From Alphaproteobacteria bacterium (GTDB lineage Bacteria > Pseudomonadota > Alphaproteobacteria > JAREAF01): a stretch of 64,000 bases of DNA. Where the stretch lies: assembly GCA_035620695.1 (NCBI GenBank), contig DASPGI010000066.1:40163-104162 (forward strand). Reading direction: 5' to 3'. Below the pieces are notes generated by a model that was given only the letters and a program-made list of their open reading frames with translations, searched no databases and had not been told where the DNA came from. Shown in pieces: positions 18,841-41,836 of the stretch (position 1 is the first letter of the stretch; the number at the start of each line of letters is the position of its first letter). Both the position numbers and the translations under genes were made by a program.

Positions 18841-18870
18841 CCGGGTGTTCGCCCGATCCCGTCGGCTCGA

Positions 18871-19809: not shown

Positions 19810-19814
19810 GGCCC

Positions 19815-20819
19815 TTAATCTCCCAAGGTGGCGACCAGCAGCGCCTTGATCGTGTGCATCCGATTCTCGGCCTGCTCGAAGGCGATGTTCCGCTCTGACT
19901 CAAACACCTCGTTGGTGACCTCAAGCCCGTTCGTCATGCCGTAAGTTTCGGCGATCTGACGACCCACGACCGTCTCTGTATCGTGGAAAGCGGGCAAGCA
20001 GTGCATAAACCTCACTTGCGGGTTTCCGCTTGCCTCGATCAGGGCGTCATTCACCTGATAGGGCTTCAAGAGGTCGATGCGCTCCTTCCAAACCTCCTTC
20101 GGCTCGCCCATGGAAACCCAGACGTCCGTGTGAATGAAGTCCACCCCCTTCACCGCGGCCTTGGGGTCTTCGGTGATGGTGAGCTTGGCGCCGTGCTTAC
20201 GCTCCAAATCCTGGGCGATCTTCCTGTATTCCTGGGTTGGCCAGAGTTTCTTTGGGCCAGCGATGCGCACATCCATTCCCATCAGGCATCCGGCGATCAT
20301 CAGCGAATGGCCCATATTCGAGCGGGTATCGCCGACATAGGCGTATTTGATCTCGTGGATCGGCCGGTCGCTGTGCTCGCGCATGGTCATGATGTCCGCA
20401 AGCATCTGGGTCGGGTGATACTCGTCGGTTAGCCCGTTATAGACCGGCACGCCGGCATATTCCGCGAGCTGCTGCACGCCCTCCTGAGAAGCGCCGCGAT
20501 ACTCGATCGCGTCATACATGCGCCCCAGCACGCGCGCGGTGTCCTTGAAGGATTCTTTGTGTCCGATTTGCGAGCCCGCCGGATCGAGATAGGTGACATG
20601 CGCGCCCTGGTCATGACACGCGACCTCGAAGGCACAACGGGTGCGGGTCGAGGTCTTCTCGAAGATCAGGCAGATCTCCTTTCCTTCGAGATGCCGCTGC
20701 TCGGTCCTCGAGTACTTCGCCCGCTTGAGATCGCGCGCGAGATCCAGGAGGTAGCGGAACTCCCGTTGGGTGTAGTCCTGCACGGTCAAGAGCGAACGGT
20801 TGCGCAGATTGAAGCTCAC
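19815..20819 (-). CDS. arcB: Ornithine carbamoyltransferase, catabolic
   Basis: 334 aa. STRTR carbamoyl-phosphate motif and HCLP ornithine motif. Called arcB from operon context. Confidence 0.93.
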
Positions 20820-20847
20820 GGGTTCCCTCCGTCGACATTGATGGCAT

Positions 20848-22077: not shown

Positions 22078-22121
22078 CTTCCTCTCCCGTAATCCGTGAT
22101 CCGAAGAAGCTTCCACTCCGT

Positions 22122-28888: not shown

Positions 28889-29692
28889 TTAGAATTGAGC
28901 GCCAAGCGCTATCATGCCGGCCAGAATCAGCGTCCATCCCGTGACGCGGGTCAGCCAGTGCCCCAACGGCACGCTTTTCTCGATCAAGATATAAAGGGCG
29001 AGCCCTCCGATCCAGGCGAAGTTCATGACGCCCCCATAGAAGAGCAGCCCCATCATGACCCAACAGCAACCGAGGCAATAGGCGCCATGCGCGATACCCA
29101 TGCGAAGAGCGCCAAATCGGCCCGAGCGCCAGTGGTGCGAAAGAAACCGAAGCGGGCTTTGGCAGTGGGCGAGGCATGCGCGTTTGATCGGAGTGAGCTG
29201 CCAAGTTCCCGCGCCGATCAGGATAAGCCCGCCCAAGAATGAGCTAGCGCTGGCCATCGCCATGGTCATGAGGCCGCTCTGGTCGAGCGCCCAGTGGAGG
29301 ATTGCCGCGACCAGGCTGAAACTGCCCCAGACCAGCATATAGCCCCAGGCGAAGGACAGCGTCGCCGACGCTCGCCCATCCGTCAAGCGCCGAGCGACGA
29401 GGTCGTAGAGAAGAATAGTCGGGGCAGCGCTCGGCAGCATCATCGCCGCCATCATGATCCACCACATCAGGAAGATCACGACGGCGTAGCCGGGGGACCA
29501 GGGCAAGGGCGCCATCACCATGCTCGGGTCCATTCCATCCATCGAGGGCATGCCCGCCCCGGCGAAGAGATAGACCCAAGCCAACCCCGCCACGACCAAA
29601 AGCGCTACCGTCACGACGCGGCGTTCGCGCTGCAGCACCAGCCGCCATGCTTGGCGAGATCCTCGAATCTGATGGAGAGCGACCTCGCCCAT
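28889..29692 (-). CDS. DUF2182-family predicted metal-binding integral membrane protein
   Basis: Start at MGEVALH (ATG at 29690-29692), which overlaps the stop of the upstream DUF1326 gene by one base (ATGA coupling) with a neighbouring GGA; the listed ORF start is 29746. Polytopic (6 TM), Met/Trp-rich helices. Confidence 0.7.
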   Translation of the reverse strand: MGEVALHQIRGSRQAWRLVLQRERRVVTVALLVVAGLAWVYLFAGAGMPSMDGMDPSMVMAPLPWSPGYAVVIFLMWWIMMAAMMLPSAAPTILLYDLVARRLTDGRASATLSFAWGYMLVWGSFSLVAAILHWALDQSGLMTMAMASASSFLGGLILIGAGTWQLTPIKRACLAHCQSPLRFLSHHWRSGRFGALRMGIAHGAYCLGCCWVMMGLLFYGGVMNFAWIGGLALYILIEKSVPLGHWLTRVTGWTLILAGMIALGAQF

Positions 29693-30327
29693 CAGGCAAT
29701 CACGCCCTTGGGTCCGTAGGCGACATATGTCAGAAAGCCATAGCAATTACGGTGCTGCATACCCAGCTCGGGACCTGCGGACTCGAAACGGCCACTGGCC
29801 ATCTCGGCCTCGCGGAACTCGAATCCCTCCGGCAGCCGGATCTGCGCCCGGTGCGGCGCGCCGGTCACGGGGTTGCGGATTGGCTCCAGGCTCATCTCCA
29901 TCATTCCAGGCACGCGGAAGCCGCCGGTGCGTGATTCGAGATCAGCGCTGAACTCTACGGGAGCCACGATCAGGTCCAGCTCACGGGCGATGGTTGCTCC
30001 ATAGATGTTGAAGGGTGTGGCCGGCTCCTGCTCCTTGCCGGACATGATCTGGATCAGCGCATCGCGCTGCTCGGGCGTGGCGCGCTCGTCGATGAAGCCC
30101 TGCGCGACGCCGCCCCCCTCATGAACCGGCCCCGGCCAGCGGTAGCGCGCACCGATGATGAGCCCGTCGAGCTTCACGGCGCCGAAATGACCTTGGTCGA
30201 TCCGATGCGCCTCCAGGCCTTCGCAGATCGGGTGCGTCGGACGTGCATTGAACTCGCACGGGCAGCCATAGTCGCAATTGCAGGCGGAGATCTTGGGTCC
30301 CTTGATCATCCAGTCCCGATGCGCCAT
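29692..30327 (-). CDS. DUF1326-family protein, the usual partner of DUF2182
   Basis: 211 aa, soluble, with a Cys-rich N-terminus (ISACNCDYGCPCEFNARP). Translationally coupled to the downstream DUF2182 gene. Confidence 0.7.
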   Translation of the reverse strand: MAHRDWMIKGPKISACNCDYGCPCEFNARPTHPICEGLEAHRIDQGHFGAVKLDGLIIGARYRWPGPVHEGGGVAQGFIDERATPEQRDALIQIMSGKEQEPATPFNIYGATIARELDLIVAPVEFSADLESRTGGFRVPGMMEMSLEPIRNPVTGAPHRAQIRLPEGFEFREAEMASGRFESAGPELGMQHRNCYGFLTYVAYGPKGVIA

Positions 30328-30413: not shown

Positions 30414-31352
30414 TCACGGTCGTGGAGCGAAACCCGCGGGGTCGGTGTTTGCTCCGCACAGCACAACGCCGACGCGCTCGCCCGCTTCGATGGGATAGGC
30501 ACCGCAGAGCAACGCCGCCAGCGCCGCCGCGCCGCCGGGCTCGACGAGGATGCGCAGCTCGCGCCACAGCGCCCGCTGCGCCGCCTGGATCGCATCATCT
30601 TCGACCAGCAGCACGCGCAGGGCCTGAGCTTGCGCGATCTCGCAAGCAAGACCGCCCGCCTCGCGCGCGCCGAGGGAATCGGCAGCGATGCCCGATACGG
30701 CCACCGGAACGGGCCGCCCCGCCGCCAGTGCGTCATGCAAGGTCGGCGCAAGGTTCGGCTCGACACCAATGACGCGGGTGCCGCTACCCTGATAGGCCAG
30801 TGCCATTCCGGCGATGAGCCCTCCACCGCCGACCGCGACCAGAACGCTATCGAGGTCCGGCGCCTGGCGCCGCAATTCGAGCCCCACGGTGCCTTGACCC
30901 AGAACAACCTCGGGCTGGTCGTACGCGTGAACGACCAGCGCGCCGCTTGTCTCTGCCCGAATCGCGCTGGCCGCAAGGGCCTCGGCATAGGTCGCGCCGG
31001 TCACCGCCACATCGGCGCCGGTGTCGCGGATGGCCCGAAGCTTGGCCGGCGCGGCGATGGTCGGAACGAAGATTGTCGCCTTGACCCCGAGCCGGCGCGC
31101 CGCGTGGGCGACGGCAATTCCGTGATTTCCGCCCGAAGCCGCGATCACGCCCGACGATGGAATCTCATGAGACAGCAGGCGGTTGAACGCCCCGCGAGGC
31201 TTGAAGGAGCCGGTGACTTGCAGGAATTCGAGCTTGAGCGTAAGGCGACCGTTGAGCCCAAACGCCCCCTTCTCCAGCTCCAGGACGGGCGTGGTGCGGA
31301 TGTGCGGCGCGATTCGCTCCAAAGCGTCGGCGATGCCGTTCCTGTCGATCAT
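30414..31352 (-). CDS. PLP-dependent threonine/serine dehydratase-like enzyme
   Basis: Start at MIDRNGIADALERIAPHIRTTPV (ATG at 31352) rather than the listed 31502. Lys motif SFKPRG and a glycine-rich PLP loop ASGGNHG. Confidence 0.8.
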   Translation of the reverse strand: MIDRNGIADALERIAPHIRTTPVLELEKGAFGLNGRLTLKLEFLQVTGSFKPRGAFNRLLSHEIPSSGVIAASGGNHGIAVAHAARRLGVKATIFVPTIAAPAKLRAIRDTGADVAVTGATYAEALAASAIRAETSGALVVHAYDQPEVVLGQGTVGLELRRQAPDLDSVLVAVGGGGLIAGMALAYQGSGTRVIGVEPNLAPTLHDALAAGRPVPVAVSGIAADSLGAREAGGLACEIAQAQALRVLLVEDDAIQAAQRALWRELRILVEPGGAAALAALLCGAYPIEAGERVGVVLCGANTDPAGFAPRP

Positions 31353-31383
31353 CTCCGCACCATGACGACGACGTGCTGTCGCT

Positions 31384-32025
31384 TCAATGGGGATGGGGCG
31401 TGGAGCCCGAGAGGAGACCCAGCCGCTGGAAATGGCCGCGCAACTCCTCTGCTCCAATGAACCGGATCGCTTGAAAGCCGAGCCCGAGAGCCGCCGCGAC
31501 ATTCGCCTGCGAATCGTCTACGAAGATCGTGCGCTCGGGTATCAATCCCGTCCTCTCGATCAGCAACCCGAAGATTCGCGGGTCGGGCTTGATCACCCCC
31601 TCCTCGCCAGAGATCAGGATGTGCCGGAACCGGTTCAGGAACGCAAAACGCCTGCGTCCGATCGGGAATGTCTCGGCCGACCAGTTGGTCAACGCATAGA
31701 GCGGCATTCCGCTTGAATGCAGCTCCTCCAGAAGAGCGACCGTGCCTGAGATCTCTCCGCCAAGCATTTCCTCCCAACGCTCCCGCCAAGCGCGAATGAA
31801 CGGCTCCTGTTCAGGGTGGAGAAGCATAAGTTCGGCCAAGCCCTCCTCGAAGGAGCGGCCGGCATCGAGGCGCCGAATCCAATCCGGGGAGCACACCTCC
31901 CTCAGGAATCTCTCCATCGCCTCCTCCTCGTCGAACAGCTTGCGATAGAGATGGCGCGGATTCCAGTCGATGAGCACCCCGCCGAGATCGAAGACCACCG
32001 CTCCGATCGCAATCCGATCCTCCAT
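31384..32025 (-). CDS. HAD-superfamily hydrolase (subfamily IA-like phosphatase)
   Basis: Start at MEDRIAIGAVVFDLGGVLIDW (DxG motif I) rather than the listed 32295; about 213 aa. Motif IV-like FVDDS. Confidence 0.8.
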   Translation of the reverse strand: MEDRIAIGAVVFDLGGVLIDWNPRHLYRKLFDEEEAMERFLREVCSPDWIRRLDAGRSFEEGLAELMLLHPEQEPFIRAWRERWEEMLGGEISGTVALLEELHSSGMPLYALTNWSAETFPIGRRRFAFLNRFRHILISGEEGVIKPDPRIFGLLIERTGLIPERTIFVDDSQANVAAALGLGFQAIRFIGAEELRGHFQRLGLLSGSTPHPH

Positions 32026-32026
32026 A

Positions 32027-32944
32027 TCAACCAGCCTCCAGAGTCGGTGCGAGTCGCGGCAGAGCCTCGTGGATCTCCCGCTCGGTCGGCAGGCTGCTCT
32101 GCGCGCCCTGAGTGAGACAGGCGAGCCCGCCGGCCACACTGGCCCATCGCAAAGCCTCGCCCGGATCAAGCCCGCGATCGAGCGCGGCGGCGAAGACTCC
32201 GACCGCGGCATCGCCGGCGCCGGTGGTGTCCGCCGGCGTGATTGGGAGGGCCGGGACGCGCCACCGCGCCTCGCCCTTACAGGCAGCGATGCCACGAGCG
32301 CCCAATGTGATCACCACGCCAATATTGAACGCGCTGGCGATCGTCTTTGCATCGCCTTCGGAGCTGAGCCCCTGCGCCTTGGCGAGATCGACCGCCTCGC
32401 CTTCGTTGAGGATGAGCCAATCGAGCTTGCGCAAGAGATCGGAGGGCACAGGGCCGGCAGGCGCGAGGTTGAGCAGGATCGTCACACCCCGGGTGGCGGC
32501 GCGCCGGGCCAGGCTCCAAATTTCCTCGGCCGTGACCTCGCGCTGAAGCATCAGGATCGTACCCTGCTGCAGCAGCGCATCGGGTACGGCACGCTGGGTC
32601 AGCTTCGCGTTCGCGCCGAGTGCCACGGCGATCTGGTTCTCGCCTTTGGGATCGACGCAAATCAGCGCGCAGCCGGTCGGCGCCGATGCATCTCGGACCA
32701 GGTGATCGAGACCGACGCCCGCTGCGACGAGTTCGGCCAGGGCTGGCTCGGCAAAGGCATCACGGCCGACACAGCCGACGAAATGCGCTTCAGCACCAGC
32801 GCGACGCGCGGCCAACGCTTGATTGGCGCCTTTGCCACCGGGAAGCGTGCGATAGCCGGGCCCAAGCACGGTCTCGCCCGGACGCGGCAGACGCTCTACG
32901 GAGGCGATCAGGTCCAGATTGACGGCGCCAAACGAGATGATCAT
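32027..32944 (-). CDS. PfkB-family carbohydrate kinase (ribokinase-like)
   Basis: Start at MIISFGAVNLDL (ATG at 32944) rather than the listed 33079. GG dipeptide region PGGKGANQA and the ATP-binding signature DTTGAGDA. Its stop lies next to the HAD gene start. Confidence 0.85.
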   Translation of the reverse strand: MIISFGAVNLDLIASVERLPRPGETVLGPGYRTLPGGKGANQALAARRAGAEAHFVGCVGRDAFAEPALAELVAAGVGLDHLVRDASAPTGCALICVDPKGENQIAVALGANAKLTQRAVPDALLQQGTILMLQREVTAEEIWSLARRAATRGVTILLNLAPAGPVPSDLLRKLDWLILNEGEAVDLAKAQGLSSEGDAKTIASAFNIGVVITLGARGIAACKGEARWRVPALPITPADTTGAGDAAVGVFAAALDRGLDPGEALRWASVAGGLACLTQGAQSSLPTEREIHEALPRLAPTLEAG

Positions 32945-35193
32945 CGAACGAGCTCGAGTTTCACGGAGGCGCTGCGTTTTGGAACCAAATAACGAAGCCG
33001 GTTCCCTTCCCGCCGACCCGCCAGCACGCTGCCGTCGAGGCGCGCCTTCAGGCCGTCTCCTGCGGGAACGGCAATCCACGCGGCGGGGCCGGGCGGCAGC
33101 TCGGCTTTCACGGCGTCGGCATCGAAGGAAAGCCCGGTCAAGCGCTCAACGGATGTGATCAGGCGCGGCTGTCCATCGATGCTGAGCGTCATCGCTTCCG
33201 TTTCCGTCGACGATTCCAATCCGCCCCAGGGCGAGCAGACCGGACCCGATCGTTCGCCGTTCTTGCCGCGCGCGACAGACCAACCCCACCAAGGCGTCAC
33301 GTCGATGCGCTCGCCGAGGGCGATGAACGGCATCAGCGCGCCCCAGCCATAGAAGGAATCCGTGTCCGGCTGGTCAAAGGCCTCTCCGGTCGTGGCGGAA
33401 TAGTTTTCCGGGCATTTGCGGTCGGCCCAGGCGCGCCGGAACAGGCGCCAGCCATTCTCGGCGAGCAGGCTCGCCTCCGCCATGAAGCCGGCCCGCCGCA
33501 AGCCCGCCCAGACCAGAAAGTTCAGCGGCGGCCAGATCCGGCCCCGCCAATAGACATTGTCGGCGAAAGCCGGATCGTCGCGAGTGACCGAGGGCAAGAG
33601 CCACTCGCCGCCGAATTTCCGGGGATCGCCGAGGAGCCGTACCATGGCGCTCGCCTGCTCGGGGCGCGCCGCTCCTGCCAGAAGCGGAAAGAAACTGGTC
33701 GGCGCCAGGGAGCAAACAAAGCGTCCCGACCAGAGGCGATTGGCAAAGACCTGCCGCTCGCCATCCCAGAGCCGCTCGGCGATACGTGCCTTCAAAGCCT
33801 CCGCGCTTTCGGCATGGCGGCGCGCTGCTTGCTTTTTCCCCAGCACCTCCGCGATCAGCGCCAGCATTTCCGCGTCCAACGCGATCAGGCTGTTGAGGCC
33901 GACATCGGCGGCATTCAGCGTCCGTGTTTTCAGATCGAATTCGGCCTCGTCATGGACCGGGGAATTGTCCATAAAGGATTCGTCCTTGGCCGCGAGCTTC
34001 GTGCCGATATAGAGCCCAGCGCCGATATCCGAGCTGCCATATTCGTAAAGCCCGTCGCCATTGCCGTCGCGCCGCGCCAGCCACCAGCGGTGATTGGCAT
34101 CCAAAACGGGCCAGGCGCGGCGCAACAGCTCCCGCGAACCGAGACGCGTATGAAGAAGCCAGACGATGAAGCTTCCGATGGGGGGCTGCGAACGGTCGAG
34201 CCACGCGTCTCGACCGGTGATGAGGCAGGCAAGATTGCCCTCGGGCGTGGCGTTGCCCAGCGCAGCCTCGAGATTTTCGCGCGCGAGGTCGGGATCGATC
34301 GCGCTCGCCATCAGCGCATGGAAAAACAGATCGTCGAGCCACACACCCCAGCCACCGAATTTCTGCATGCCCCAGTTCCGGCTGAGCGTCGTGTAGGGGC
34401 GATGATTCACCGGGTCCCAAACCGTGTTCCAGGTAATCACATCACGCACGGCGGCCAGCGGGTCGGCGCTCTGGTCTCGCGATCCACCACCGCTCCAACC
34501 CTCTCCACTCGCGGGGGATGACGGCTGAAGCCGCGAAAGCGTCTCTCCGACACGCCGTACCGCCGTGCCCGGATCCGCCGCGACGGTGGCGACGAAGGTC
34601 AAACCCGGCATCTCTTCCAGATTGTAGCGCAACGCCAGAAGCGTGCCGGAGGTGCTCCGCGAATCGAGATACCAGTAGCCCTTGCTCTGCATCTCCTCGC
34701 GCAATGCCGCAAGCGAGGAATGGGCCGTCACCAGAAGCGGGCGGCGGCTGGCCCCGACCGCAACCTTCCATCTCCGATGAACCGCCTGAGCAAACCCTGT
34801 CCGCGGGTCGAACCGCCAGCGCGCCGATGCGCCAGCGCGCTCGGGCGCCATCAGCCGCAGTGCGAGCACGACCCAGAAGCGCAGGCCCCATTCGCCGTGC
34901 TTGAGCACGCGATAACGGCCGATCAATGTCGTCGGATCCGGAGAGGTGTAGCGAAGCTCGAGCTCGGTTCCGGCATGCGCGAGCCGGAGCCAAACGCCAT
35001 CGGCGGTGACCCGGCGTTGACCCAAGCTGAGACCCGGCGCGCCGGCGGGATAGTCGGTGAAGTCGTTGCGGCTGGCTGCATAGGTGCAGGGACGCAGCTC
35101 CAGGCCCAGCGGCAGATACCGCATCGCCGCGGGATGATCGGAGTCCCAACTATTCCAAGCGCGCTCGGCCGGGACGATATCAGTCCCGATCAT
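32941..35193 (-). CDS. Six-hairpin glycoside hydrolase of the GH63 / GDE_C (amylo-alpha-1,6-glucosidase-like) superfamily
   Basis: 750 aa. A large soluble enzyme whose C-terminal half resembles (alpha/alpha)6-barrel glycosidases such as YgjK and mannosyl/glucosylglycerate hydrolases. Its start overlaps the isochorismatase-family gene stop (ATGA). Confidence 0.65.
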   Translation of the reverse strand: MIGTDIVPAERAWNSWDSDHPAAMRYLPLGLELRPCTYAASRNDFTDYPAGAPGLSLGQRRVTADGVWLRLAHAGTELELRYTSPDPTTLIGRYRVLKHGEWGLRFWVVLALRLMAPERAGASARWRFDPRTGFAQAVHRRWKVAVGASRRPLLVTAHSSLAALREEMQSKGYWYLDSRSTSGTLLALRYNLEEMPGLTFVATVAADPGTAVRRVGETLSRLQPSSPASGEGWSGGGSRDQSADPLAAVRDVITWNTVWDPVNHRPYTTLSRNWGMQKFGGWGVWLDDLFFHALMASAIDPDLARENLEAALGNATPEGNLACLITGRDAWLDRSQPPIGSFIVWLLHTRLGSRELLRRAWPVLDANHRWWLARRDGNGDGLYEYGSSDIGAGLYIGTKLAAKDESFMDNSPVHDEAEFDLKTRTLNAADVGLNSLIALDAEMLALIAEVLGKKQAARRHAESAEALKARIAERLWDGERQVFANRLWSGRFVCSLAPTSFFPLLAGAARPEQASAMVRLLGDPRKFGGEWLLPSVTRDDPAFADNVYWRGRIWPPLNFLVWAGLRRAGFMAEASLLAENGWRLFRRAWADRKCPENYSATTGEAFDQPDTDSFYGWGALMPFIALGERIDVTPWWGWSVARGKNGERSGPVCSPWGGLESSTETEAMTLSIDGQPRLITSVERLTGLSFDADAVKAELPPGPAAWIAVPAGDGLKARLDGSVLAGRREGNRLRYLVPKRSASVKLELVR

Positions 35194-35801
35194 TCCGCTC
35201 TCCGGTCGGGCCAGGCCGCGAGCACTCCCTCAAGGCTGGCAATTTGGATCTGCTGATCAAGGCGCGGGTAAATCGCCTCGAGCGCGGCGTGGTGGCCCGC
35301 GGGCGAGGAGGAGGCAACGGCATCCTCCACGATTATGACGCGGTAGCCACGATCGGTCGCACCGAGAGCGAACGCCAGCACGCAGACATCGGTTTCTACC
35401 CCGGTCAGCACCAGCGTCGATGCTCGACGGCGTCCGATGGCCTTGACGAAGGCGGGGTCTTCCCAACCGCCATGGCTACGCTTGTCCAAAATCGAATCAG
35501 GTCGCGCATGCCGGGCCAGAGGCGGCACAAGGTCGAGCAGTGCAGGGTCCATGTGCGAGAGCGTCACGCTCTGCCAACGCCGGTAATAGTACCGCCATTG
35601 TCCATGCGCATCTTCCGCCCTGCGCGGCGTGACGAAGCGCGTGAACAAGGTCTCGTGCGGATGGCTGCCGATCAGCCTCAAAATCGGCGGCACGAGCTTT
35701 GGCAGCTCGGGCACCGACCAGTCGGGGTGCTCAACGAACAGCCGCTGCATGTCGAGGACGATGTGGAGCGTGTCGGCGCCCAGCGCGCCCTTCAATCTCA
35801 T
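35190..35801 (-). CDS. Isochorismatase-family (cysteine) hydrolase
   Basis: 203 aa. TGVETDVCVL catalytic-Cys block typical of isochorismatase / nicotinamidase / RutB-like hydrolases. Confidence 0.8.
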   Translation of the reverse strand: MRLKGALGADTLHIVLDMQRLFVEHPDWSVPELPKLVPPILRLIGSHPHETLFTRFVTPRRAEDAHGQWRYYYRRWQSVTLSHMDPALLDLVPPLARHARPDSILDKRSHGGWEDPAFVKAIGRRRASTLVLTGVETDVCVLAFALGATDRGYRVIIVEDAVASSSPAGHHAALEAIYPRLDQQIQIASLEGVLAAWPDRRAE

Positions 35802-35847
35802 GACAACCCGCAGGTGACGAAGCGATCCCGGAAAGCACGGCTACTGG

Positions 35848-36915
35848 TCATGGCGTGACCCAGATGCTGTGCTCGGGCGCCCAGAAGAGAGTTACGGCGG
35901 CGCCGGCATCACGCGGCGCGGCGGCGCGGTTCTGCTCGAATACGGTCAGCTCCTGGCCGGGAATCTCGATCCGGTAGGCGATGCTGCTGCCGGAATAGAT
36001 CGAACGCAAGATGCGCCCTTCAACCCGGTTGGCGCGGGCGGGCGCGTCTTTGGCAGGATCGACGAGTTGGATCTTCTCCGGCCGTACCGCCAGAATCGCT
36101 TCGCCGTCCGGCGGCGGCAATGCGCTCTCAACCGCAACCCCCGCGGTCGTGCGCACCTTGCCGCCCGCGGCGGCACCCCGCTCGACGCTGCCGCAGAAAA
36201 GGTTGGCCTCGCCCAGGAACTCGGCCGCAAATCGGCTCTGTGGGTGCTCATAGACTTGCGCCGGCGGGCCGATCTGCATCAGCCGGCCCTCGCTCAGGAT
36301 AGCGATACGGTCGCAGAGCGTCAGCGCTTCCTCCTGATCGTGCGTGACGAAGAGGGTCGTGATGCCGACCGTACGCTGAATCTGTTTCAGCTCCACCTGC
36401 ATTTCCTGCCGCAAGCGCTTGTCCAGGGCGCCCAGGGGCTCGTCCAGCAGCAGCACTTTCGGCCGGGTCACCAGCGCGCGCGCAAGCGCAACTCTCTGCT
36501 GCTGACCGCCGGAAAGCTGGCGCGGCCGGCGCTCCTCCAGTCCGGAAAGGCGCACCAGGCGTAGCGCCTCGGCGACACGCTCTGTGATCTCCGCCTTGGC
36601 AATGCCGCGAACTTGCAGACCGAAGGCGATATTGTCGAAGACGCTCAAATGCGGAAAGAGCGCGTAATTCTGGAATACCATGCCGATGCCGCGCTTGTGG
36701 ACCGGTACCGTCTCGATGCGTTGCCCGTCGATGCGGATCTCTCCAGACTCCGGCATGACGAAGCCGGCGATGGCGCGCAGCAACGTGGTTTTGCCGCTGC
36801 CGCTTGGACCCAGAAGCCCGAAGAATTCGCCCTCCGCCACCCTGAGCGTCACGCGATCGAGCGCGGCAACCGCGCCGTAGCGCTTTACCGTCTCGTGCAC
36901 TTCGACCGCGCTCAC
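35848..36915 (-). CDS. ABC transporter ATP-binding protein (PotA-like)
   Basis: 355 aa. Walker A GPSGSGKTT, signature LSGGQQQRV, Walker B LLLDEP, and a C-terminal TOBE-like regulatory domain. Confidence 0.9.
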   Translation of the reverse strand: MSAVEVHETVKRYGAVAALDRVTLRVAEGEFFGLLGPSGSGKTTLLRAIAGFVMPESGEIRIDGQRIETVPVHKRGIGMVFQNYALFPHLSVFDNIAFGLQVRGIAKAEITERVAEALRLVRLSGLEERRPRQLSGGQQQRVALARALVTRPKVLLLDEPLGALDKRLRQEMQVELKQIQRTVGITTLFVTHDQEEALTLCDRIAILSEGRLMQIGPPAQVYEHPQSRFAAEFLGEANLFCGSVERGAAAGGKVRTTAGVAVESALPPPDGEAILAVRPEKIQLVDPAKDAPARANRVEGRILRSIYSGSSIAYRIEIPGQELTVFEQNRAAAPRDAGAAVTLFWAPEHSIWVTP

Positions 36916-37685
36916 CGCTCTCCTCCGAAACGGTAGAAGCGTGCTACTGCCAGCATCAGCCCCATGGACACCAGTATGATCACCGTGGAAATGGCGTTGA
37001 TTTCCGGCGTGAAGCCCTTGCGGATGGCGGAATAGATCTCGACCGGCAGCGTCGAAACCCCTGGTGGCGCGAGAAAATAGGAGATGACGAACTGGTCGAA
37101 GGAGACGGCGAATGCAAAGAGAGCCGCCGCGACCACACCCGGCGCGATCACCGGCAAGGTCACGCGCCGGAAAGTGGTCCAGGGGCCGGCTCCGAGAGTG
37201 GCCGCCGCTTCCTCAAGCGTGACGCCGAAGCTGCGCAATCTCGCGCCGACCACGACGATGACGTAAGGCAGCGACAAGGCGACATGCCCCAGCAGGATGG
37301 CATGCAGGCCTCGTCCGATCCCGGTCCAGAAGAACAACACCAGCATGGCCGTGCCGATGATCAGCCAGGGAATCGTGATCGGGGGCAGGAGCAGAATCTG
37401 CAGAAGCGTGGCACCTCGGAAACGATAACGCTGGAACGCAAGGGCCGCCATCGTACCGAGTGCGGTCGCGATGGCCGTGTTCGCAAGCGCGATGGCCAGG
37501 CTGTTGAGCCCCGCCCCGACCAGTCGCTCATTGCCGGCAAGCCGTTCGAACCAGATGGTGTCGAAGACCATCGGCATGGCGTAAAGGGGAGATTGGTTGA
37601 AGGCCATTACCGCCATCACTCCCAGCGGCAGATAGAGAAAGATCAGCACCAGAACGAGGACGCTGCGCAATAGGATGGGCGCCAT
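36912..37685 (-). CDS. ABC transporter permease (PotC-like)
   Basis: 257 aa, 6 TM. 4-bp overlap with the ATPase gene. Confidence 0.88.
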   Translation of the reverse strand: MAPILLRSVLVLVLIFLYLPLGVMAVMAFNQSPLYAMPMVFDTIWFERLAGNERLVGAGLNSLAIALANTAIATALGTMAALAFQRYRFRGATLLQILLLPPITIPWLIIGTAMLVLFFWTGIGRGLHAILLGHVALSLPYVIVVVGARLRSFGVTLEEAAATLGAGPWTTFRRVTLPVIAPGVVAAALFAFAVSFDQFVISYFLAPPGVSTLPVEIYSAIRKGFTPEINAISTVIILVSMGLMLAVARFYRFGGER

Positions 37686-37700
37686 TGCCGGGACCTGCCT

Positions 37701-38636
37701 CTATCGCCCGGTCGCGGCCGCGAGCGGACGGCCGAGGACGGGAGCGGCAATGGCCATCAGAAGAAGCACTATCGCCAAAAGAATGAAGGAGAGGGCAGCG
37801 CCGAGCGGCCAGTTGAAGACGACGGTGAACTGATCCTCAATCACCGTGCCGAGCATGATTCCCTCCGGACCGCCCAGGATGCGCGGCTCCATGAACGAGC
37901 CGATCACCGGGACGAAGATCAGGACCACTCCGACCAGCAGTCCCGGCAGGCTAAGCGGCAAGGTCACCCGGCGAAAGACGGTGAGGGGCGAGGCGCCGAG
38001 GCTGAGCGCCGCCTCCTCGAGACTTGTCTCGATCGCTTGCAGCGAGAGATAACAAGTGAGGATCATGTAAGGCAGGAAGGAGTGGACCAGGCCGACTACG
38101 ATCGCCGGGTAGCTGAAGAGGATGCCGAGCGAGGGCGCCTCGGGCCAGAGGACCTGGACCGATTGGTCGATAAGCCCACCCCCGCGCAGCACCATGGTCC
38201 AGGAAAAGATGCGCACCAGCGCATTGCTCCAGAATGGCAGCACGATCAGGAGGAACAGCGCCTCGCGCCAGCGTCCCGGCACATGGCGCGCCAAGGCGAG
38301 TGCAGCGGGATAACCGATCACCATGCACCAGAAGGTGACGTCCAGACCGAGCTTGAGCGAGCGCCAGGTAAGGGTGCGGTAGAATTCCTTGTCCATGAAG
38401 GCCGCATAGTGCCGAAACGTGAATTCGGCCTCGCGCCCTCCGAAGGGGGCCACCGAGAGAAAGCTGAACAGCAGCATCGCCGAAAGCGGCAGGAAGATCG
38501 TGAGCAAGAGCCAGAGATAGGCCGGGCCCAGAAGATAGAATGGGGCAAGACTCGCCCGGGAGATCGCAGATGCGCCGGCCCTGCCCCTTCCGCCGCTACC
38601 AGACATTCCCTGCACGATGTTTGAAGGGCTAGCCAC
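37701..38636 (-). CDS. ABC transporter permease (PotB-like)
   Basis: 311 aa, 6 TM. 15 bp upstream of the second permease. Confidence 0.85.
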   Translation of the reverse strand: MASPSNIVQGMSGSGGRGRAGASAISRASLAPFYLLGPAYLWLLLTIFLPLSAMLLFSFLSVAPFGGREAEFTFRHYAAFMDKEFYRTLTWRSLKLGLDVTFWCMVIGYPAALALARHVPGRWREALFLLIVLPFWSNALVRIFSWTMVLRGGGLIDQSVQVLWPEAPSLGILFSYPAIVVGLVHSFLPYMILTCYLSLQAIETSLEEAALSLGASPLTVFRRVTLPLSLPGLLVGVVLIFVPVIGSFMEPRILGGPEGIMLGTVIEDQFTVVFNWPLGAALSFILLAIVLLLMAIAAPVLGRPLAAATGR

Positions 38637-38740
38637 CCCACCCTCACCCGACCTCTTCCGCCCCAGGGGCGGGAGAGGGGCTCAATGAGCGACCCCTCGC
38701 CCCGCCGAGCGGAGAGAGGGTCGGGGTGAGGGGCAACTCA
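38630..38740. repeat. GC-rich palindromic intergenic repeat element (REP/RIME-like)
   Basis: Imperfect inverted arms CCCTCACCCGACCTCTTCCGCC ... GGCGGAGAGAGGGTCGGGGTGAGGG flank an internal CCCCAGGGGCGGGAGAGGGGC palindrome. The element sits between the periplasmic-binding-protein gene and the first permease. Confidence 0.5.
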
Positions 38741-38760
38741 ACTGCGCACGCGCCAACAGC

Positions 38761-39834
38761 TCACAGCGCGATCTTGGTCTTTACTTCCTGCCAGAGATCG
38801 AGCCACTCCTGCTTGCGGTCGTCGGGAATCGGCGCCTGGAACTGGAGGCGCTTGGCCACCTCCGGGTTGCCGAGAACGGCGCGGTTCAGCGCATCCTCGG
38901 GCAGCTCGGCGTTGGCCTTGGCATTGGCCGAGGCGGGAGCGCCGACATTGTTGTCCCATGGCACATAGAAGTCCGGATCGACCATATAGTCGATGAAGGC
39001 ATGCGCCGCGTCCGGATTGGGTGCGCCAGCGGCGATGGAGAGGCCGTCGAACCAGCCGATCGCGCCCTCCTTCGGCACTACGAACTCGACCGGCAGTCCG
39101 AACGCTTTCTTGCTGCGGGCGGCCGAACCGGACCAGTAGACCGCGATGTCGAACTGGTCGGCTTGCATATACTTGTTCCACTCATCCTCGGAGGACCAGA
39201 AGGTCGCGATCTGCGGCTTCAAGGCCTCGAGCTTTTCGCGGATCTTGCCCATGTCGGCGGGATTGTTCATATCCTGGCCCGTGGCGATCGCGGCGAGCTG
39301 CACGGCCTCGATCGCGTCGTCGCGCCAGCCGATCCGACCCTTGAATGCGGGATCCCAGAGCACCTGGATCGACTCCGGCGCTGGTGCGATTTCCGCACTG
39401 TCGTAAGCGAATGAGGTGACGCCCCAAACCCAGGAGAGGCCATAGGTCTTGCCGTCGATATTCAGATAGGTGTGGTCACGGAATGTGGGCGTCAAATCGG
39501 CGAAATTGGTGATCTTCGATGTGTCGATCGGCTGGATCAGCCCTTCCGACTGCGCCTGACCGGTGAAGGTTGAGTTGATGAGCACGACATCGTAGGTGCC
39601 GGGGCTGGTCCGCAGCTTGGTCAGCATCTCCTGCTCGGAGTTGAAATAGTCGTGGCTGACCTTGACGCCATGCGCCTTCGAGAAGGCCTCGACGGCCCAG
39701 GCCTCGTCAGTGCCGTAACCCTGCCAGTTGAGTACCCTGAGCTCGCCCGCCGCCGCCGCGCGCCGCCTCAGCGCCGGAAGGGTCGTCAGCGCCAAAGCCG
39801 CCGACGAGCCGATGAGAAACTGCCGCCTCTGCAT
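38761..39834 (-). CDS. ABC transporter periplasmic substrate-binding protein, family 1 (PotD/PotF-like), Tat-type signal
   Basis: 357 aa. N-terminus MQRRQFLIGSSAALALTTLPALRRRAAAA, then a PotD-like fold. Confidence 0.85.
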   Translation of the reverse strand: MQRRQFLIGSSAALALTTLPALRRRAAAAGELRVLNWQGYGTDEAWAVEAFSKAHGVKVSHDYFNSEQEMLTKLRTSPGTYDVVLINSTFTGQAQSEGLIQPIDTSKITNFADLTPTFRDHTYLNIDGKTYGLSWVWGVTSFAYDSAEIAPAPESIQVLWDPAFKGRIGWRDDAIEAVQLAAIATGQDMNNPADMGKIREKLEALKPQIATFWSSEDEWNKYMQADQFDIAVYWSGSAARSKKAFGLPVEFVVPKEGAIGWFDGLSIAAGAPNPDAAHAFIDYMVDPDFYVPWDNNVGAPASANAKANAELPEDALNRAVLGNPEVAKRLQFQAPIPDDRKQEWLDLWQEVKTKIAL

Positions 39835-39940
39835 GCGAAATCCTCCCCGCCTCTTTACCGGGCGTACTGTCCCTGCGCGGGAGGGCCCGAGCCCTGCCCC
39901 GCGACCGATCAGGATTAAAGGCGGCTGGCCGGGCGACTTG

Positions 39941-41836
39941 TCAATTCAGAACTCGGGGGACCCCGGATGGCGCCTTCGCGCAATGGGCCGCACCTGCCGC
40001 CCTGGCGATGGCCCGGATCTCCTCTGCATCCAAGGTCTCGCGCTCAAGCAAGGCATGCGCCAGAGCTTCTAGGGCCGATGCCTGGCGGGTCAGCATCGCG
40101 ATCGCCCGGCCATGGGCGCACTCGATGATGGCACGCACCTCGCTGTTGATCAGCGCCGCCGTGGTGTCGGTCATCGCCGCCCGCTCATAAGCGCCGGAGG
40201 CTGCGCCCCCCTCCGCATAGGCCACCAGCCCCATCCGCTCGCTCATGCCCCATTTGCAGACCATGTTGCGCGCGATGTGGGTGGCCATCTCGATGTCGGC
40301 GGCCGCCCCGGTGGTGATGCGTCCAGGCCCGAAGACCAGCTCTTCCGCCGCCCGGCCGCCCATGGCCACCGCAAGGTCGGCTTCGAGCTTGGCGCGGGTC
40401 GCCGAAAGGCGGTCGCGCTCCGGCAGACGCACCACCTGGCCCAGCGATCGGCCGCGCGGCAGGATGGTCGCTTTATGCACCGGGTCGGAATCGGGCTCGT
40501 TCAGCGCGACCAGCGCATGGCCAGCCTCGTGATAGGCAGTGAGCCTCCGTTCCTCCTCGCTCATGGTAAGGCTGCGCCGCTCGGAGCCCATCAGGATCTT
40601 GTCCTTGGCGGCCTCGAAAGCGACCATATCCACCGCGTCGGCCCCGTGCCGCGCAGCGATCAGGGCCGCCTCGTTGACCAGATTGGCAAGGTCGGCACCG
40701 GAGAATCCAGGGGTGCCGCGCGCAAGATCAAGCACCTGAACCTTCTGTTCCAGCTTCAGCTTGCGCATATGGACGGTCAGGATTTCGATGCGGCCCTTCA
40801 GATCGGGATTGGCGACGTTGACCTGACGATCGAATCGGCCCGGCCTCAGCAGCGCGGGGTCGAGCACGTCCGGACGGTTGGTCGCGCCGATCAGCACGAC
40901 ACCCTCGGAAGGATCGAAGCCGTCGATCTCGACCAGAAGCTGGTTCAGGGTCTGGTCATGCTCGTCATGCCCGCCGCCCCCGCTGCCGTTACGCCGCCGA
41001 CCGACGGCGTCGATCTCGTCGATAAAGACGATGCAAGGGGCCTGCTTGCGGGCGGCGCGGAAGAGCGAGCGCACCCGCCGGGCGCCGAGGCCGACAAACA
41101 TCTCGACGAATTCGGAGCCCGAGATGGAGAAGAACGGCACCTTCGCCTCGCCGGCGACGGCACGTGCAAGCAGAGTCTTGCCGGTGCCCGGGGGTCCCAA
41201 CAGCAAAAGTCCTTTGGGCATGCGCCCGCCCAGCGACTGAAAGCGCGCCGGATCCTTTAGAAAGGCGATGACTTCGGCCAATTCTTCCTTGGCATCCTCC
41301 ACGCCCGCCACATCGGCGAAGGAAAAGCCGTTGCGCTTGGGATCGATCAGCTGCGCAGGCGATCGGCCGATCCCAAGCAACCCACCGCGACCAAAGCCGC
41401 CGCCGACCAGATAGAGTATCGGGCCGAGTAGAATCAGCGCCGGGACCAGCGAGATCATCAAGTCGATGAGGCGCCCATCCTCGGGTGCGAGAAAGGCCAG
41501 CTCGACCCCTGCTTGCCCCGCTCGCGCGGCCATCTCGGGCGCAAATCCTTCCGGAAGCAGCGTCGTCGTGAACCCGCCGGCATGGGTGCGGATCGCGAGG
41601 CGATCTTCCTTCAACACCAGTCCGGCGACTGCGCCCTCGTCGAGCAGGCGCAGAAAATCGGAATAGGCGATCTCCTCGGCGAGCGCCTCGGCAGGGCCGG
41701 CCTCGAGGTTGCCGCCCGCTTCCTTGAACAGGGCGCGGGCCTCGTCGCCCTTGCCCCAGGACAATGCCGCATAGGTTCCCGCAGAACACAGAAGCGCAAT
41801 TCCGGCGAGGATTGCCACCTTCCACTTGGCCGTCAT
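39941..41836 (-). CDS. ftsH: ATP-dependent zinc metalloprotease FtsH (paralog)
   Basis: 631 aa. Two TM helices flank a periplasmic region. AAA+ Walker A GPPGTGKT, Walker [10 protein letters not shown], second region of homology, and the zinc motif HEAGHA. Confidence 0.9.

What the first reader, a model, noticed from the sequence alone, without database searches (positions are those of the whole stretch)
30414..39834. Nine-gene catabolic operon of unknown substrate: PotABCD-like importer + isochorismatase hydrolase + GH63/GDE-like glycosidase + PfkB kinase + HAD phosphatase + threonine-dehydratase-like enzyme
All nine genes are on the minus strand with overlaps or gaps of 46 bp or less, apart from a ~125-bp gap between the binding-protein gene and the first permease that carries a REP-like element. 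The importer is of the polyamine/opine type (family-1 SBP with a Tat signal). The enzymes suggest a hydrolytic step (amidase-like isochorismatase fold), cleavage of a glycosidic or glycosyl-ester bond (750-aa six-hairpin glycosidase related to GH63 / mannosyl- or glucosyl-glycerate hydrolases / debranching-enzyme C-domain), phosphorylation by a ribokinase-family kinase, dephosphorylation by a HAD enzyme, and a PLP-dependent deamination/dehydration. The combination resembles pathways for glycosylated compatible solutes, Amadori/opine-like sugar-amino-acid conjugates or glycosylated amines, but it does not match a pathway I can name. It looks like a plant- or soil-derived nutrient catabolic island typical of rhizobial accessory regions.
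Basis: inference. Interest (0 to 1): 0.65.

Follow-up and report, generated by a model that had tools for sequence, protein, structure and literature searches.

The report
Importer-hydrolase operon for a vitamin-B3-type glycoside
The nine genes are real, but only six or seven form a module conserved across Alphaproteobacteria: a polyamine-type importer, a cysteine amidase, a GH63/trehalase-like glycosidase and often a ribokinase. In other bacteria this module repeatedly sits beside nicotinamide and nicotinate breakdown genes, so its substrate is probably a still unidentified sugar conjugate of vitamin B3.

Summary
Observation confirmed.

Interpretation partly supported. Of 50 related loci of at least 20 kb, 44 keep the binding protein and the cysteine hydrolase beside the glycosidase. 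Eleven have the kinase. None has the HAD or PLP gene, so these two are add-ons of the window's own lineage.

The module, or its importer alone, adjoins nicotinate or nicotinamide catabolic genes in about seven differently arranged lineages. These use two unrelated nicotinate pathways. It also recurs with nucleoside hydrolase plus kinase, or with ADP-ribosylglycohydrolase plus kinase.

Best reading (about 0.45): uptake and breakdown of a cationic N-glycosyl pyridine such as nicotinamide riboside or a glycosylated relative. The bond the glycosidase cuts is unknown.

The window carries no nic genes and looks chromosomal, not a rhizobial accessory island. I found no paper describing this link.

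The parts
39835..39940 (-). 106-bp intergenic region upstream of the binding-protein gene; presumed promoter and operator
   Evidence: Gap between the FtsH-like gene (39941-41836) and the binding-protein ATG. No sigma-70 consensus match and no Rfam family or riboswitch. The role as promoter is inferred only.
38761..39834 (-). Periplasmic substrate-binding protein, PotD-like, with a twin-arginine signal
   Evidence: SBP_bac_8 E 3e-34. PotD equivalog 149 bits against a cut-off of 582. Best solved relatives are PotD and PotF. PotD ligand positions: W37, Y40, W234, W261, D173 and D263 kept; E36->G39, Y293->A299, T35->Q38, S83->N87, Y85->T89.
38633..38734 (-). G+C-rich hairpin between the binding-protein and first permease genes (REP-like)
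   Evidence: MFE -79.5 kcal/mol, z -3.4. Palindromes occupy the same junction in L083. No second full copy in the window or in the loci fetched by then.
37701..38636 (-). ABC permease 1 (PotB-like); the true start may be the ATG at 38606
   Evidence: BPD_transp_1. PotB equivalog 172 bits against a cut-off of 348. The homologue in L083 is 299 aa. Junctions.
36912..37685 (-). ABC permease 2 (PotC-like)
   Evidence: BPD_transp_1. PotC equivalog 201 bits against 326.
35848..36915 (-). ABC ATPase with C-terminal TOBE domain
   Evidence: ABC_tran plus TOBE_2. Passes the potA subfamily model TIGR01187 (368.6 against 355.6) but not the PotA equivalog. Overlaps permease 2 by 4 bp.
35190..35801 (-). Isochorismatase-fold cysteine hydrolase (amidase type); not a canonical PncA
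   Evidence: PF00857 E 4e-31. D17, K107 and C140 are at least 95% conserved among 46 family members, as are several Trp. Best solved relatives are nicotinamidases at E about 1e-9. The PncA metal ligands are replaced.
32941..35193 (-). Cytoplasmic 750-aa clan GH-G glycosidase (GH63/GH37-like, MGH1-like domain)
32027..32944 (-). PfkB kinase, ribokinase-like
   Evidence: PF00294 E 4e-58. Ribokinase equivalog 237 bits against 299.65. The top 16 solved relatives are all ribokinases, best E 3e-58. ATGA overlap with the glycosidase stop. Present in 11 of 50 long related loci.
31384..32025 (-). HAD-IA hydrolase or phosphatase; lineage-specific add-on
   Evidence: PF00702 and PF13419, passes TIGR01509. 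Found only in L001 and L083 among relatives.
30414..31352 (-). PLP-dependent serine/threonine dehydratase-like enzyme; lineage-specific, possibly a separate unit with DUF1326/PpoB2
   Evidence: PALP E 6e-72. Passes NCBIfam PRK08246 (422.7 against 331). In L001 it is separated from HAD by an IlvD/Edd gene while staying next to DUF1326 and PpoB2.

Best explanation
The locus is one copy of a conserved uptake-and-hydrolysis module of Alphaproteobacteria. Its substrate is most likely a cationic N-glycosyl pyridine of the vitamin-B3 family: nicotinamide or nicotinate riboside, or a further glycosylated relative.

Proposed mechanism:
1. A Tat-exported PotD-like binding protein captures the cation. 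It keeps the aromatic box and two aspartates of PotD but has an altered set of the other ligand contacts.
2. The PotBC-like permeases and the PotA-like ATPase import it.
3. In the cytoplasm the Asp-Lys-Cys cysteine hydrolase removes an amide, probably the carboxamide of the nicotinamide moiety.
4. The GH63/trehalase-like glycosidase cleaves a glycosidic bond of the conjugate.
5. The ribokinase-like PfkB phosphorylates the released ribose.

The pyridine product would go to NAD salvage or to nicotinate catabolic genes elsewhere in the genome. HAD and the PLP dehydratase are co-packed, lineage-specific additions, not core steps.

Shown: gene families, catalytic residues, fold, conservation of the six- to seven-gene core, and the linkage to nic, pncA and ribose genes in relatives.

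Inferred: substrate identity, order of steps, the bond cut by the glycosidase, and co-transcription.
For: Core conservation:
- 44 of 50 loci of at least 20 kb that hold a glycosidase homologue (40-69% identity) also hold the binding protein and the cysteine hydrolase within 10 kb. They occur in two gene orders. 11 have PfkB, 0 have HAD and 0 have PALP.
- The Hypericibacter terrae genome has exactly binding protein, two permeases, ATPase, hydrolase, glycosidase, PfkB.

Link to nicotinate and nicotinamide, in differently arranged lineages:
- Rhizobiaceae (27 loci): the module lies between a NicA/NicB-like hydroxylase pair and a MarR/XdhC pair. NicC-, NicD- and NicE-like genes are divergent, and in L081 also NicF- and NicX-like genes. 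The NicX-like protein matches 2,5-dihydroxypyridine dioxygenase 7CN3 at E 3e-95.
- Aureimonas.
- Acetobacteraceae: glycosidase with GH3, beside NicX/F/E/D-like or FeS/NicC-like genes.
- Dongiaceae: one same-strand run of nucleoside hydrolase, PfkB, importer, hydrolase, glycosidase, true PncA (2WT9, E 1e-76), FAD subunit, FeS-Moco dehydrogenase and an Hnr-like gene.
- Cypionkella and L077.
- Pleomorphomonas: binding protein and glycosidase lie 3-10 kb from genes annotated nicR and Hnr.
- Burkholderia stagnalis: importer alone beside NicX/NicF/NicB-like genes and an MFS transporter.

Link to ribose:
- The window PfkB's best solved relatives are all ribokinases.
- An IU-nucleoside hydrolase (PF01156, E 6e-59) sits upstream of PfkB or of the binding-protein gene in 12 loci.
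- A sister variant pairs the same importer with an ADP-ribosylglycohydrolase-family protein and a different PfkB. In Paracoccus and Mesorhizobium its binding protein is 55% identical and has the same pocket signature.

Cation site:
- The PotD aromatic box and two Asp are kept, while E36, Y85 and Y293 become small residues.

Active enzymes:
- Glycosidase acids are invariant and the cysteine-hydrolase triad is conserved in at least 95% of 46 members.
- 105 positions are invariant across 70 glycosidases, including several acidic residues absent from YgjK.

Candidate compounds:
- Plants are reported to make and partly secrete nicotinate N-glycosides (PMC6776627, PMC13510662).
Against: - The window and its closest relatives (L001, L002, L003, L083, L084) have no nic, pncA or nucleoside-hydrolase gene in reach. 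The inference rests on homologues of 40-69% identity.
- The 27 Rhizobiaceae loci count as one evolutionary event.
- To my knowledge all characterised clan GH-G enzymes cut O-glycosidic bonds of alpha-glucosides or alpha-mannosides, not beta-N-ribosides or beta-N-glucosides. The glycosidase step has no precedent in this scheme.
- Nucleoside hydrolase and a true PncA coexist with the glycosidase and the cysteine hydrolase in Dongiaceae. Plain nicotinamide riboside would leave the latter two without a role.
- The cysteine hydrolase lacks the PncA metal site.
- No experimental or literature support was found.
Confidence: 0.45

Rival explanations
1. Catabolism of a glycosylated compatible solute carrying an amide, such as mannosylglyceramide or a glucosylglycerate/mannosylglycerate derivative. 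The amidase would deamidate it, the MGH1-like hydrolase would release hexose plus glycerate, and the PfkB kinase would phosphorylate the sugar.
For: The best Pfam hit of the glycosidase is the mannosylglycerate hydrolase MGH1-like domain (E 8e-50). Solved relatives include TTHA0978 and the M. hassiacum glucosylglycerate hydrolase. An amidase next to the glycosidase fits a glyceramide.
Against: The glucosylglycerate hydrolase equivalog scores 59 bits against a cut-off of 550. A cation-type PotD-like binding site is odd for an anionic or neutral solute. The kinase is ribokinase-like. No glycerate kinase or dehydrogenase appeared in the neighbourhoods inspected. This reading does not explain the repeated nic/pncA, nucleoside-hydrolase and ADP-ribosylglycohydrolase neighbours.
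Confidence: 0.1
2. Catabolism of another cationic glycoside: an amino-sugar or aminoglycoside-like compound, a glycosylated polyamine, or an Amadori or opine-type sugar-amine conjugate.
For: The importer is polyamine-type and keeps a cation-binding core. The mannopine and agropine binding proteins MotA and AgtB are distant relatives of the binding protein (E about 5e-8). Ribose- and alpha-glucosamine-containing aminoglycosides would in principle need an alpha-glycosidase, a ribokinase and sometimes an amidase (my inference).
Against: No homologues of moc, soc or frl-type oxidoreductases or deglycases appeared in the loci inspected. The fructoselysine kinase model gives only 34 bits against 247. 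This reading does not explain linkage to two different nicotinate pathways and to PncA.
Confidence: 0.15
3. The genes are not one system: a polyamine importer followed by unrelated enzymes that merely share a strand.
For: No transcript data exist. No promoter or terminator could be assigned. HAD and PALP are indeed not conserved partners. The ATPase passes the potA subfamily model.
Against: Importer, cysteine hydrolase and glycosidase stay together in 44 of 50 long loci across at least four alphaproteobacterial orders and in two gene orders. Junctions are 4-bp overlaps or short gaps. Five of 13 spermidine contacts are replaced by family-conserved residues.
Confidence: 0.05

Closest known systems
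PotABCD spermidine/putrescine ABC importer (E. coli)
   Same: Same four-component architecture (binding protein, two permeases, ATPase with TOBE domain). PotD and PotF are the best solved relatives (E 1e-39). The aromatic box (W34, Y37, W229, W255) and D168 and D257 are conserved.
   Different: All four PotA-D equivalog cut-offs are missed. E36, T35, S83, Y85 and Y293 are replaced (G, Q, N, A/I/T, A). The signal peptide is Tat-type. The genes are embedded with hydrolases rather than standing alone.
GH63 / GH37 (clan GH-G) glycosidases: E. coli YgjK, Thermus TTHA0978, mycobacterial glucosylglycerate hydrolase, trehalases
   Different: Only 14-28% identity. It fails every NCBIfam equivalog (YgjK 92 bits against 625, GgH 59 against 550, TreA/TreF). 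It has an extra C-terminal beta-sandwich (630-750). Many of the 105 family-invariant residues, including several acidic ones, are not shared with YgjK. The genomic partners are an amidase and a cation importer.
Nicotinamidase PncA and other isochorismatase-fold cysteine hydrolases (CSHase, RutB, BiuH, YcaC)
   Same: PF00857 fold and Asp-Lys-Cys triad. The closest solved relatives are streptococcal nicotinamidases.
   Different: Only E about 1e-9, over the C-terminal half. The PncA metal-binding Asp/His/His are replaced by Arg, a hydrophobic residue and a variable residue. The family has its own conserved residues at 95% or more (H13, W28, W69, W76, R154, H170, R180, W197). It coexists with a true PncA in Dongiaceae.
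Aerobic nic cluster (P. putida nicAB-C-X-D-F-E, NicR) and the Hnr-type nicotinate pathway (E. barkeri)
   Same: Relatives of the module are embedded in or adjacent to such clusters in about seven lineages.
   Different: The window has no nic gene in 64 kb. The module would act upstream of these pathways. I found no published nic cluster description that includes these genes.
Nucleoside catabolic cassettes of the type hydrolase + PfkB kinase + transporter (e.g. rihABC/rbsK, yeiC-yeiN, yegTUV)
   Same: A ribokinase-like PfkB next to a glycosidase and an importer. Related loci add an IU-nucleoside hydrolase or replace the hydrolases with an ADP-ribosylglycohydrolase-family protein.
   Different: The glycosidase here has a GH63-like fold that is not known to act on nucleosides. 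The importer is polyamine-type rather than a nucleoside or ribose transporter.

Membership tests
PotABCD polyamine importer | Binding protein, two permeases and an ATPase encoded together | tested here: met
   Pfam SBP_bac_8, two BPD_transp_1, ABC_tran plus TOBE_2; contiguous genes.
PotABCD polyamine importer | Scores above the curated PotD, PotB, PotC and PotA equivalog cut-offs | tested here: not met
   149 against 582, 172 against 348, 201 against 326, 360 against 482. Only the broad potA subfamily model passes, 368.6 against 355.6.
PotABCD polyamine importer | The spermidine-contacting residues of PotD (list recalled from the PotD crystal-structure literature; all 13 residue letters matched the E. 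coli sequence) | tested here: not met
   In the window 8 of 13 are kept (W34, Y37, D168, E171, W229, W255, D257, Q327). E36->G, Y293->A, T35->Q, S83->N and Y85->A/I/T are replaced throughout the family, and positions 171 and 327 vary among members.
Clan GH-G glycoside hydrolases (GH63/GH37) | Six-hairpin catalytic barrel, with an N-terminal beta-sandwich as in YgjK | tested here: met
Clan GH-G glycoside hydrolases (GH63/GH37) | General acid Asp and general base Glu (YgjK D501 and E727; roles recalled from the literature) | tested here: met
   Window D409 and E596, plus D288 aligned with YgjK D324; invariant in 70/70 homologues.
Clan GH-G glycoside hydrolases (GH63/GH37) | Passes the Pfam family thresholds | tested here: met
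   PF22422 170.9 against 27, PF01204 64 against 21, PF03200 39.8 against 22.4.
Clan GH-G glycoside hydrolases (GH63/GH37) | Orthology with a characterised enzyme (YgjK, glucosylglycerate hydrolase, TreA/TreF) | tested here: not met
   All NCBIfam equivalogs fall far below their cut-offs.
Clan GH-G glycoside hydrolases (GH63/GH37) | CAZy family or subfamily assignment, and measured alpha-glycosidase activity | not testable with these tools
   dbCAN/CAZy is not available here and no biochemistry is possible.
Isochorismatase-fold cysteine hydrolase | PF00857 domain with an Asp-Lys-Cys triad | tested here: met
   E 4e-31. D17, K107 and C140 conserved in at least 95% of 46 members.
Nicotinamidase PncA | Metal-binding Asp/His/His (QDWHxPNH motif) | tested here: not met
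   Aligned with the Dongiaceae PncA, these positions are Arg, a hydrophobic residue and a variable residue in the family.
Ribokinase (RbsK) | PfkB fold with ribokinase-level similarity | tested here: inconclusive
   The top 16 solved relatives are ribokinases, E 3e-58. The sequence shows the NxD, GGKGANQ and GAGD motifs (motif roles from my own knowledge). The TIGR02152 score is 237, below its cut-off of 299.65.
nic (nicotinate degradation) cluster | Presence of nicAB, nicC, nicX or equivalent genes in the locus | tested here: not met
   tblastn with the Rhizobium and Dongiaceae nic-type proteins finds nothing in the 64-kb window. The linkage exists only in homologous loci.

The most novel reading that the evidence does not exclude
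The GH63/trehalase-like protein is a new kind of clan GH-G enzyme. It would release nicotinamide or nicotinate from an N-glycosyl pyridinium compound, or strip an unknown sugar from a glycosylated nicotinamide riboside. Together with its dedicated cysteine amidase and PotD-derived importer it would define a widespread, undescribed bacterial route for harvesting conjugated vitamin B3, for example plant-secreted nicotinate N-glycosides or nicotinamide riboside.
Probability: 0.2. Interest if true: 0.8.

Novelty: new variant of a known kind. Interest (0 to 1): 0.6.

Why it matters
Plants detoxify and partly secrete nicotinate as N-glycosides. A 2026 study reports that root bacteria carrying nic clusters convert secreted vitamin B3 into an immune-priming signal (PMC6776627, PMC13510662). 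I found no described bacterial system for taking up and deconjugating glycosylated B3.

If this module does that job, three things follow:
- A large uncharacterised branch of GH63/GH37-like enzymes would gain a function. The search found 862 proteins with E <= 1e-10 among the 8000 candidates scored.
- It would show a PotD-type binding site retuned for a different cation.
- It would add an entry step to nicotinate catabolism and NAD salvage in soil and rhizosphere Alphaproteobacteria.

Even if the B3 reading is wrong, the six-gene core is a well-defined and easily testable orphan pathway.

Tried and rejected
- Megablast of the 9.4-kb locus against plasmids found only short hits of 70-85% identity in transporter genes, so there is no known plasmid homologue.
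- The exact-sequence look-up of the glycosidase found nothing on record.
- Rfam at gathering threshold on the whole window, and a permissive scan of 38600-40000, found no riboswitch. The only hits were a tRNA at 60291-60363 and a chance miRNA match.
- The sigma-70 promoter and terminator scan found 0 promoters, and terminator-like sites were at chance level.
- The search for further copies of the hairpin motif found none beyond the two arms, in the window or in the 90 loci fetched by then.
- Eight literature searches on nicotinate glycosides, nicotinamide riboside catabolism, GH63 with isochorismatase, GH63 gene clusters, Rhizobium nic clusters, and ADP-ribosylglycohydrolase with PfkB found no paper describing this module. 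The RikA paper proved irrelevant.
- Source names for homologues of the cysteine hydrolase are only generic: 'cysteine hydrolase' or 'nicotinamidase-related amidase'.
- PDB sequence searches for the 894-aa partner protein of Rhizobium and for the Hnr-like protein gave no usable match.
- Pfam scans of other recurrent neighbours found housekeeping or efflux genes and no NAD-type regulator such as NrtR, NiaR or NadR.
- I considered and rejected a functional role for HAD and PALP in the core pathway, because they are not conserved.
- I considered and rejected a mobile or accessory island, because composition is even, the neighbours are housekeeping genes and no scanned gene product matched a mobility family.

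Full report
**1. What is in the sequence**

The interval 30414-39834 holds nine minus-strand genes.

- A PotD-like family-1 binding protein (SBP_bac_8, E 3e-34).
- Two BPD_transp_1 permeases, closest to PotB and PotC.
- An ABC ATPase with a TOBE domain. It passes only the broad potA subfamily model.
- An isochorismatase-fold protein (E 4e-31).
- A 750-aa protein matching the MGH1-like glycosidase domain (E 8e-50), trehalase and GH63 models.
- A PfkB kinase (E 4e-58).
- A HAD-IA hydrolase.
- A PLP enzyme that passes the serine/threonine dehydratase model PRK08246.

The longest ORFs of the last three genes carry spurious N-terminal extensions. Domain boundaries, ATG positions and the gene calls in an 81%-identical relative (L083) place them at 32027-32944, 31384-32025 and 30414-31352. 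With these starts the junctions are 124, 15, -4, 46, -4, -4, 1 and 31 bp.

The 124-bp gap folds into a roughly 100-nt G+C-rich hairpin (-79.5 kcal/mol, z -3.4). A relative has a larger cluster of palindromes at the same junction. I found no other full copy of the motif.

The binding protein begins MQRRQFLIG, a twin-arginine motif.

**2. Where it comes from**

The glycosidase is identical to a protein from a metagenome-assembled, unclassified Alphaproteobacterium on a 107-kb contig. Its nearest relatives are Rhodospirillales MAGs.

G+C is even across the window, 0.60-0.67. The flanking genes are:

- an FtsH-like protease, a hybrid histidine kinase, a Sel1-repeat protein and an aminotransferase;
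- DUF1326 and PpoB2, and an HWE histidine kinase;
- an arginine deiminase operon;
- ack-pta, argG, folD and rlmN.

None of the gene products scanned matched a mobility family, and no known plasmid carries the locus. The phrase 'rhizobial accessory island' is not supported.

**3. Which genes belong together**

I fetched 80 genomic loci encoding homologues of the glycosidase (40-69% identity) and mapped the nine window proteins onto them.

Among the 50 loci with at least 20 kb, 44 carry the binding protein and the cysteine hydrolase next to the glycosidase. Eleven carry the PfkB kinase. None carries HAD or PALP.

Two gene orders exist.

- Rhodospirillales and many Hyphomicrobiales: binding protein, permease, permease, ATPase, hydrolase, glycosidase.
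- Rhizobiaceae and others: glycosidase first, then the importer and the hydrolase.

The Hypericibacter terrae genome has exactly the seven genes from binding protein to PfkB, with overlapping junctions.

HAD and PALP occur only in the window's closest relatives, L001 and L083. In L001 an IlvD/Edd dehydratase separates them, while PALP stays next to DUF1326 and PpoB2.

The unit under selection is therefore importer plus cysteine hydrolase plus glycosidase, often with a kinase. HAD and PALP are lineage-specific neighbours, even though their packing in the window suggests co-transcription.

**4. The proteins**

*Glycosidase.* The best solved sequence relatives are YgjK (E 3e-19), Thermus TTHA0978, the mycobacterial glucosylglycerate hydrolase, glucosidase I and trehalases.

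An AlphaFold model built on 38 sequences (pLDDT 87.4) shows three parts: an N-terminal beta-sandwich, a helical barrel, and an extra C-terminal beta-sandwich.

YgjK D324, D501 and E727 align with window D288, D409 and E596. All three are invariant in 70 of 70 homologues. Their roles as acid and base come from my recollection of the YgjK literature.

All orthologue-level models fail. The family has 105 invariant positions, including several acidic residues absent from YgjK. It is a distinct, uncharacterised branch of clan GH-G.

*Cysteine hydrolase.* D17, K107 and C140 are conserved in at least 95% of 46 members, together with several tryptophans. The nearest solved relatives are nicotinamidases, at only E 1e-9. 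The metal ligands of PncA are replaced.

*Kinase.* The 16 best solved relatives are all ribokinases (E 3e-58). The ribokinase equivalog score is nevertheless below its cut-off.

*Binding protein.* I aligned it with E. coli PotD. It keeps the aromatic box (W37, Y40, W234, W261) and two aspartates (D173, D263). It replaces E36, T35, S83, Y85 and Y293, and the family has G, Q/K, N, A/I/T and A at these positions. This looks like a cation site with smaller side chains at three contacts. It is not a spermidine site.

**5. What the neighbours in other genomes say**

*Rhizobiaceae (27 loci).* The module lies between a 2Fe-2S protein plus a 1180-aa molybdopterin/cytochrome c protein (the NicA/NicB architecture) and a MarR regulator, a GH3 enzyme and XdhC.

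A divergent operon encodes an FAD monooxygenase, an alpha/beta hydrolase and an Asp/Glu racemase-type protein. In L081, whose flank reaches further, it also encodes an isochorismatase and a protein that matches 2,5-dihydroxypyridine dioxygenase NicX at E 3e-95. This is the aerobic nicotinate pathway.

*Other nic-linked lineages.*

- Aureimonas shows nic linkage in a different arrangement.
- Gluconobacter and Komagataeibacter have the glycosidase with GH3, a TonB-type receptor and a symporter, but no importer.
- Dongiaceae have one same-strand run: nucleoside hydrolase, PfkB, importer, hydrolase, glycosidase, a true nicotinamidase (2WT9, E 1e-76), then an FAD subunit, a fused FeS-molybdopterin dehydrogenase and a 516-aa protein.
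- That 516-aa protein is 70% identical to a Pleomorphomonas gene annotated as 6-hydroxynicotinate reductase.
- The same alternative nicotinate gene set flanks the module in Cypionkella and L077.
- In Pleomorphomonas it lies 3-10 kb from the binding protein and glycosidase.
- In Burkholderia stagnalis the importer alone (binding protein 57% identical) sits beside NicX, NicF, NicB, MarR and an MFS transporter.

That makes about seven differently arranged lineages and two non-homologous nicotinate pathways. Chance adjacency is very unlikely, although I could not run a formal genome-wide control.

**6. The ribose thread**

An IU-type nucleoside hydrolase (PF01156, E 6e-59) lies upstream of PfkB or of the binding-protein gene in 12 loci.

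In Paracoccus, Mesorhizobium and Burkholderia the importer is paired with an ADP-ribosylglycohydrolase-family protein and a different PfkB (25-27% identity to the window kinase). These loci have neither the glycosidase nor the cysteine hydrolase.

The Paracoccus and Mesorhizobium binding proteins are 55% identical to the window's and share its pocket signature. The start of the Burkholderia protein shows the same W-K-G-Y motif.

So the same or a very similar ligand seems to be handled by alternative hydrolase sets. All of them are glycosidic-bond hydrolases teamed with a sugar or nucleoside kinase.

**7. Best explanation and its limits**

The simplest reading that covers all of this is uptake of a cationic N-glycosyl pyridine: nicotinamide or nicotinate riboside, or a further glycosylated relative. 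Amide hydrolysis, glycosidic cleavage and ribose phosphorylation follow. The pyridine product then goes to salvage or to nic genes elsewhere.

Candidate natural compounds exist. Plants are reported to make nicotinate N-glucoside, N-pentoside and N-rhamnoside, and the N-glucosides are reported to be secreted (PMC6776627, PMC13510662).

The weak points are real.

- The window and its nearest relatives have no nic or pncA gene in reach.
- To my knowledge clan GH-G enzymes act only on alpha-O-glucosides and alpha-O-mannosides.
- In Dongiaceae a nucleoside hydrolase and a true PncA coexist with the glycosidase and the cysteine hydrolase. Plain nicotinamide riboside would not need the latter two.

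I put 0.45 on the vitamin-B3 glycoside reading. I put about 0.8 on the weaker statement that this is a conserved six- to seven-gene module for a cationic glycoside bearing an amide.

Rival readings are a compatible-solute amide (0.10), another cationic glycoside or opine/Amadori compound (0.15), and unrelated genes (0.05).

**8. Novelty**

Eight full-text searches found no description of this glycosidase branch, of its pairing with the cysteine hydrolase and the PotD-like importer, or of their embedding in nic clusters.

In kind it is an ordinary importer-plus-hydrolase catabolic operon. In content it is a new variant: an orphan GH-G branch, a retuned polyamine-type binding site, and an unreported link to vitamin-B3 catabolism.

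Simple binding and enzyme assays on culturable carriers would settle the question.

Noticed in passing
window 17251-23603 (-): A complete arginine deiminase pathway operon: amino-acid permease (22122-23603), arginine deiminase (20848-22149), ornithine carbamoyltransferase (19815-20819), carbamate kinase-like protein (18871-19809) and a Na+/H+ antiporter family protein (17251-18840).
   Followed up: no
L089 9976-15659; L090 9130-15768; L087 6989-13741: A sister variant of the importer in Paracoccus albus, Mesorhizobium sp. B1-1-8 and Burkholderia stagnalis: [GntR], ADP-ribosylglycohydrolase-family protein, a distinct PfkB, then binding protein, two permeases and ATPase. It has no GH63-like glycosidase and no cysteine hydrolase. 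In Paracoccus and Mesorhizobium the binding-pocket signature is the same as in the window. In Burkholderia the variant abuts NicX/NicF/NicB-like genes.
   Followed up: partly
L081 9299-11983 and homologues in 31 loci: An 894-1232-aa protein annotated 'carbohydrate-binding protein', with no Pfam or NCBIfam hit, lies directly beside the glycosidase in Rhizobiaceae, Aureimonas and Acetobacteraceae. Its only solved-structure match is a weak N-terminal one to Bacteroides BT0986 (5MQM/5MWK, E 1.5e-4).
   Followed up: partly
L021 3636-20857 (also L019, L022, L023): Dongiaceae carry a same-strand run of about 15 genes: nucleoside hydrolase, kinase, importer, cysteine hydrolase, glycosidase, PncA, a three-part molybdenum dehydrogenase, an Hnr-like protein, two unknown proteins (one AA_synth, PF06684) and MarR. 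It looks like a complete route from a nicotinamide conjugate into a reductive nicotinate pathway.
   Followed up: partly
window 28889-30327 (-), and L001, L083: A DUF1326 plus PpoB2 (DUF2182-type 'copper chaperone') gene pair follows the PLP dehydratase after an 86-bp gap. The pair stays with it in both close relatives, so the dehydratase may belong with this pair rather than with the glycosidase operon.
   Followed up: no
window 39941-41836 (-): A 631-aa FtsH-like AAA protease (Peptidase_M41) lies 106 bp upstream on the same strand. A Sel1-repeat gene and a hybrid histidine kinase lie beyond it. The arrangement is conserved in L083 but not in more distant relatives.
   Followed up: no
L005 12968-14844: A DarT (ssDNA ADP-ribosyltransferase) and macro-domain pair, that is a DarTG-type toxin-antitoxin, sits immediately downstream of the PfkB gene of the module in one Rhodospirillales MAG.
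   Followed up: no
window 3208-5628 (-) and 550-2744 (-): An 806-aa DUF3141 protein (E 4e-277) lies next to phosphotransacetylase and acetate kinase genes.
   Followed up: no
window 60291-60363 (+): A single tRNA gene; it is the only Rfam match in the window at gathering threshold.
   Followed up: no
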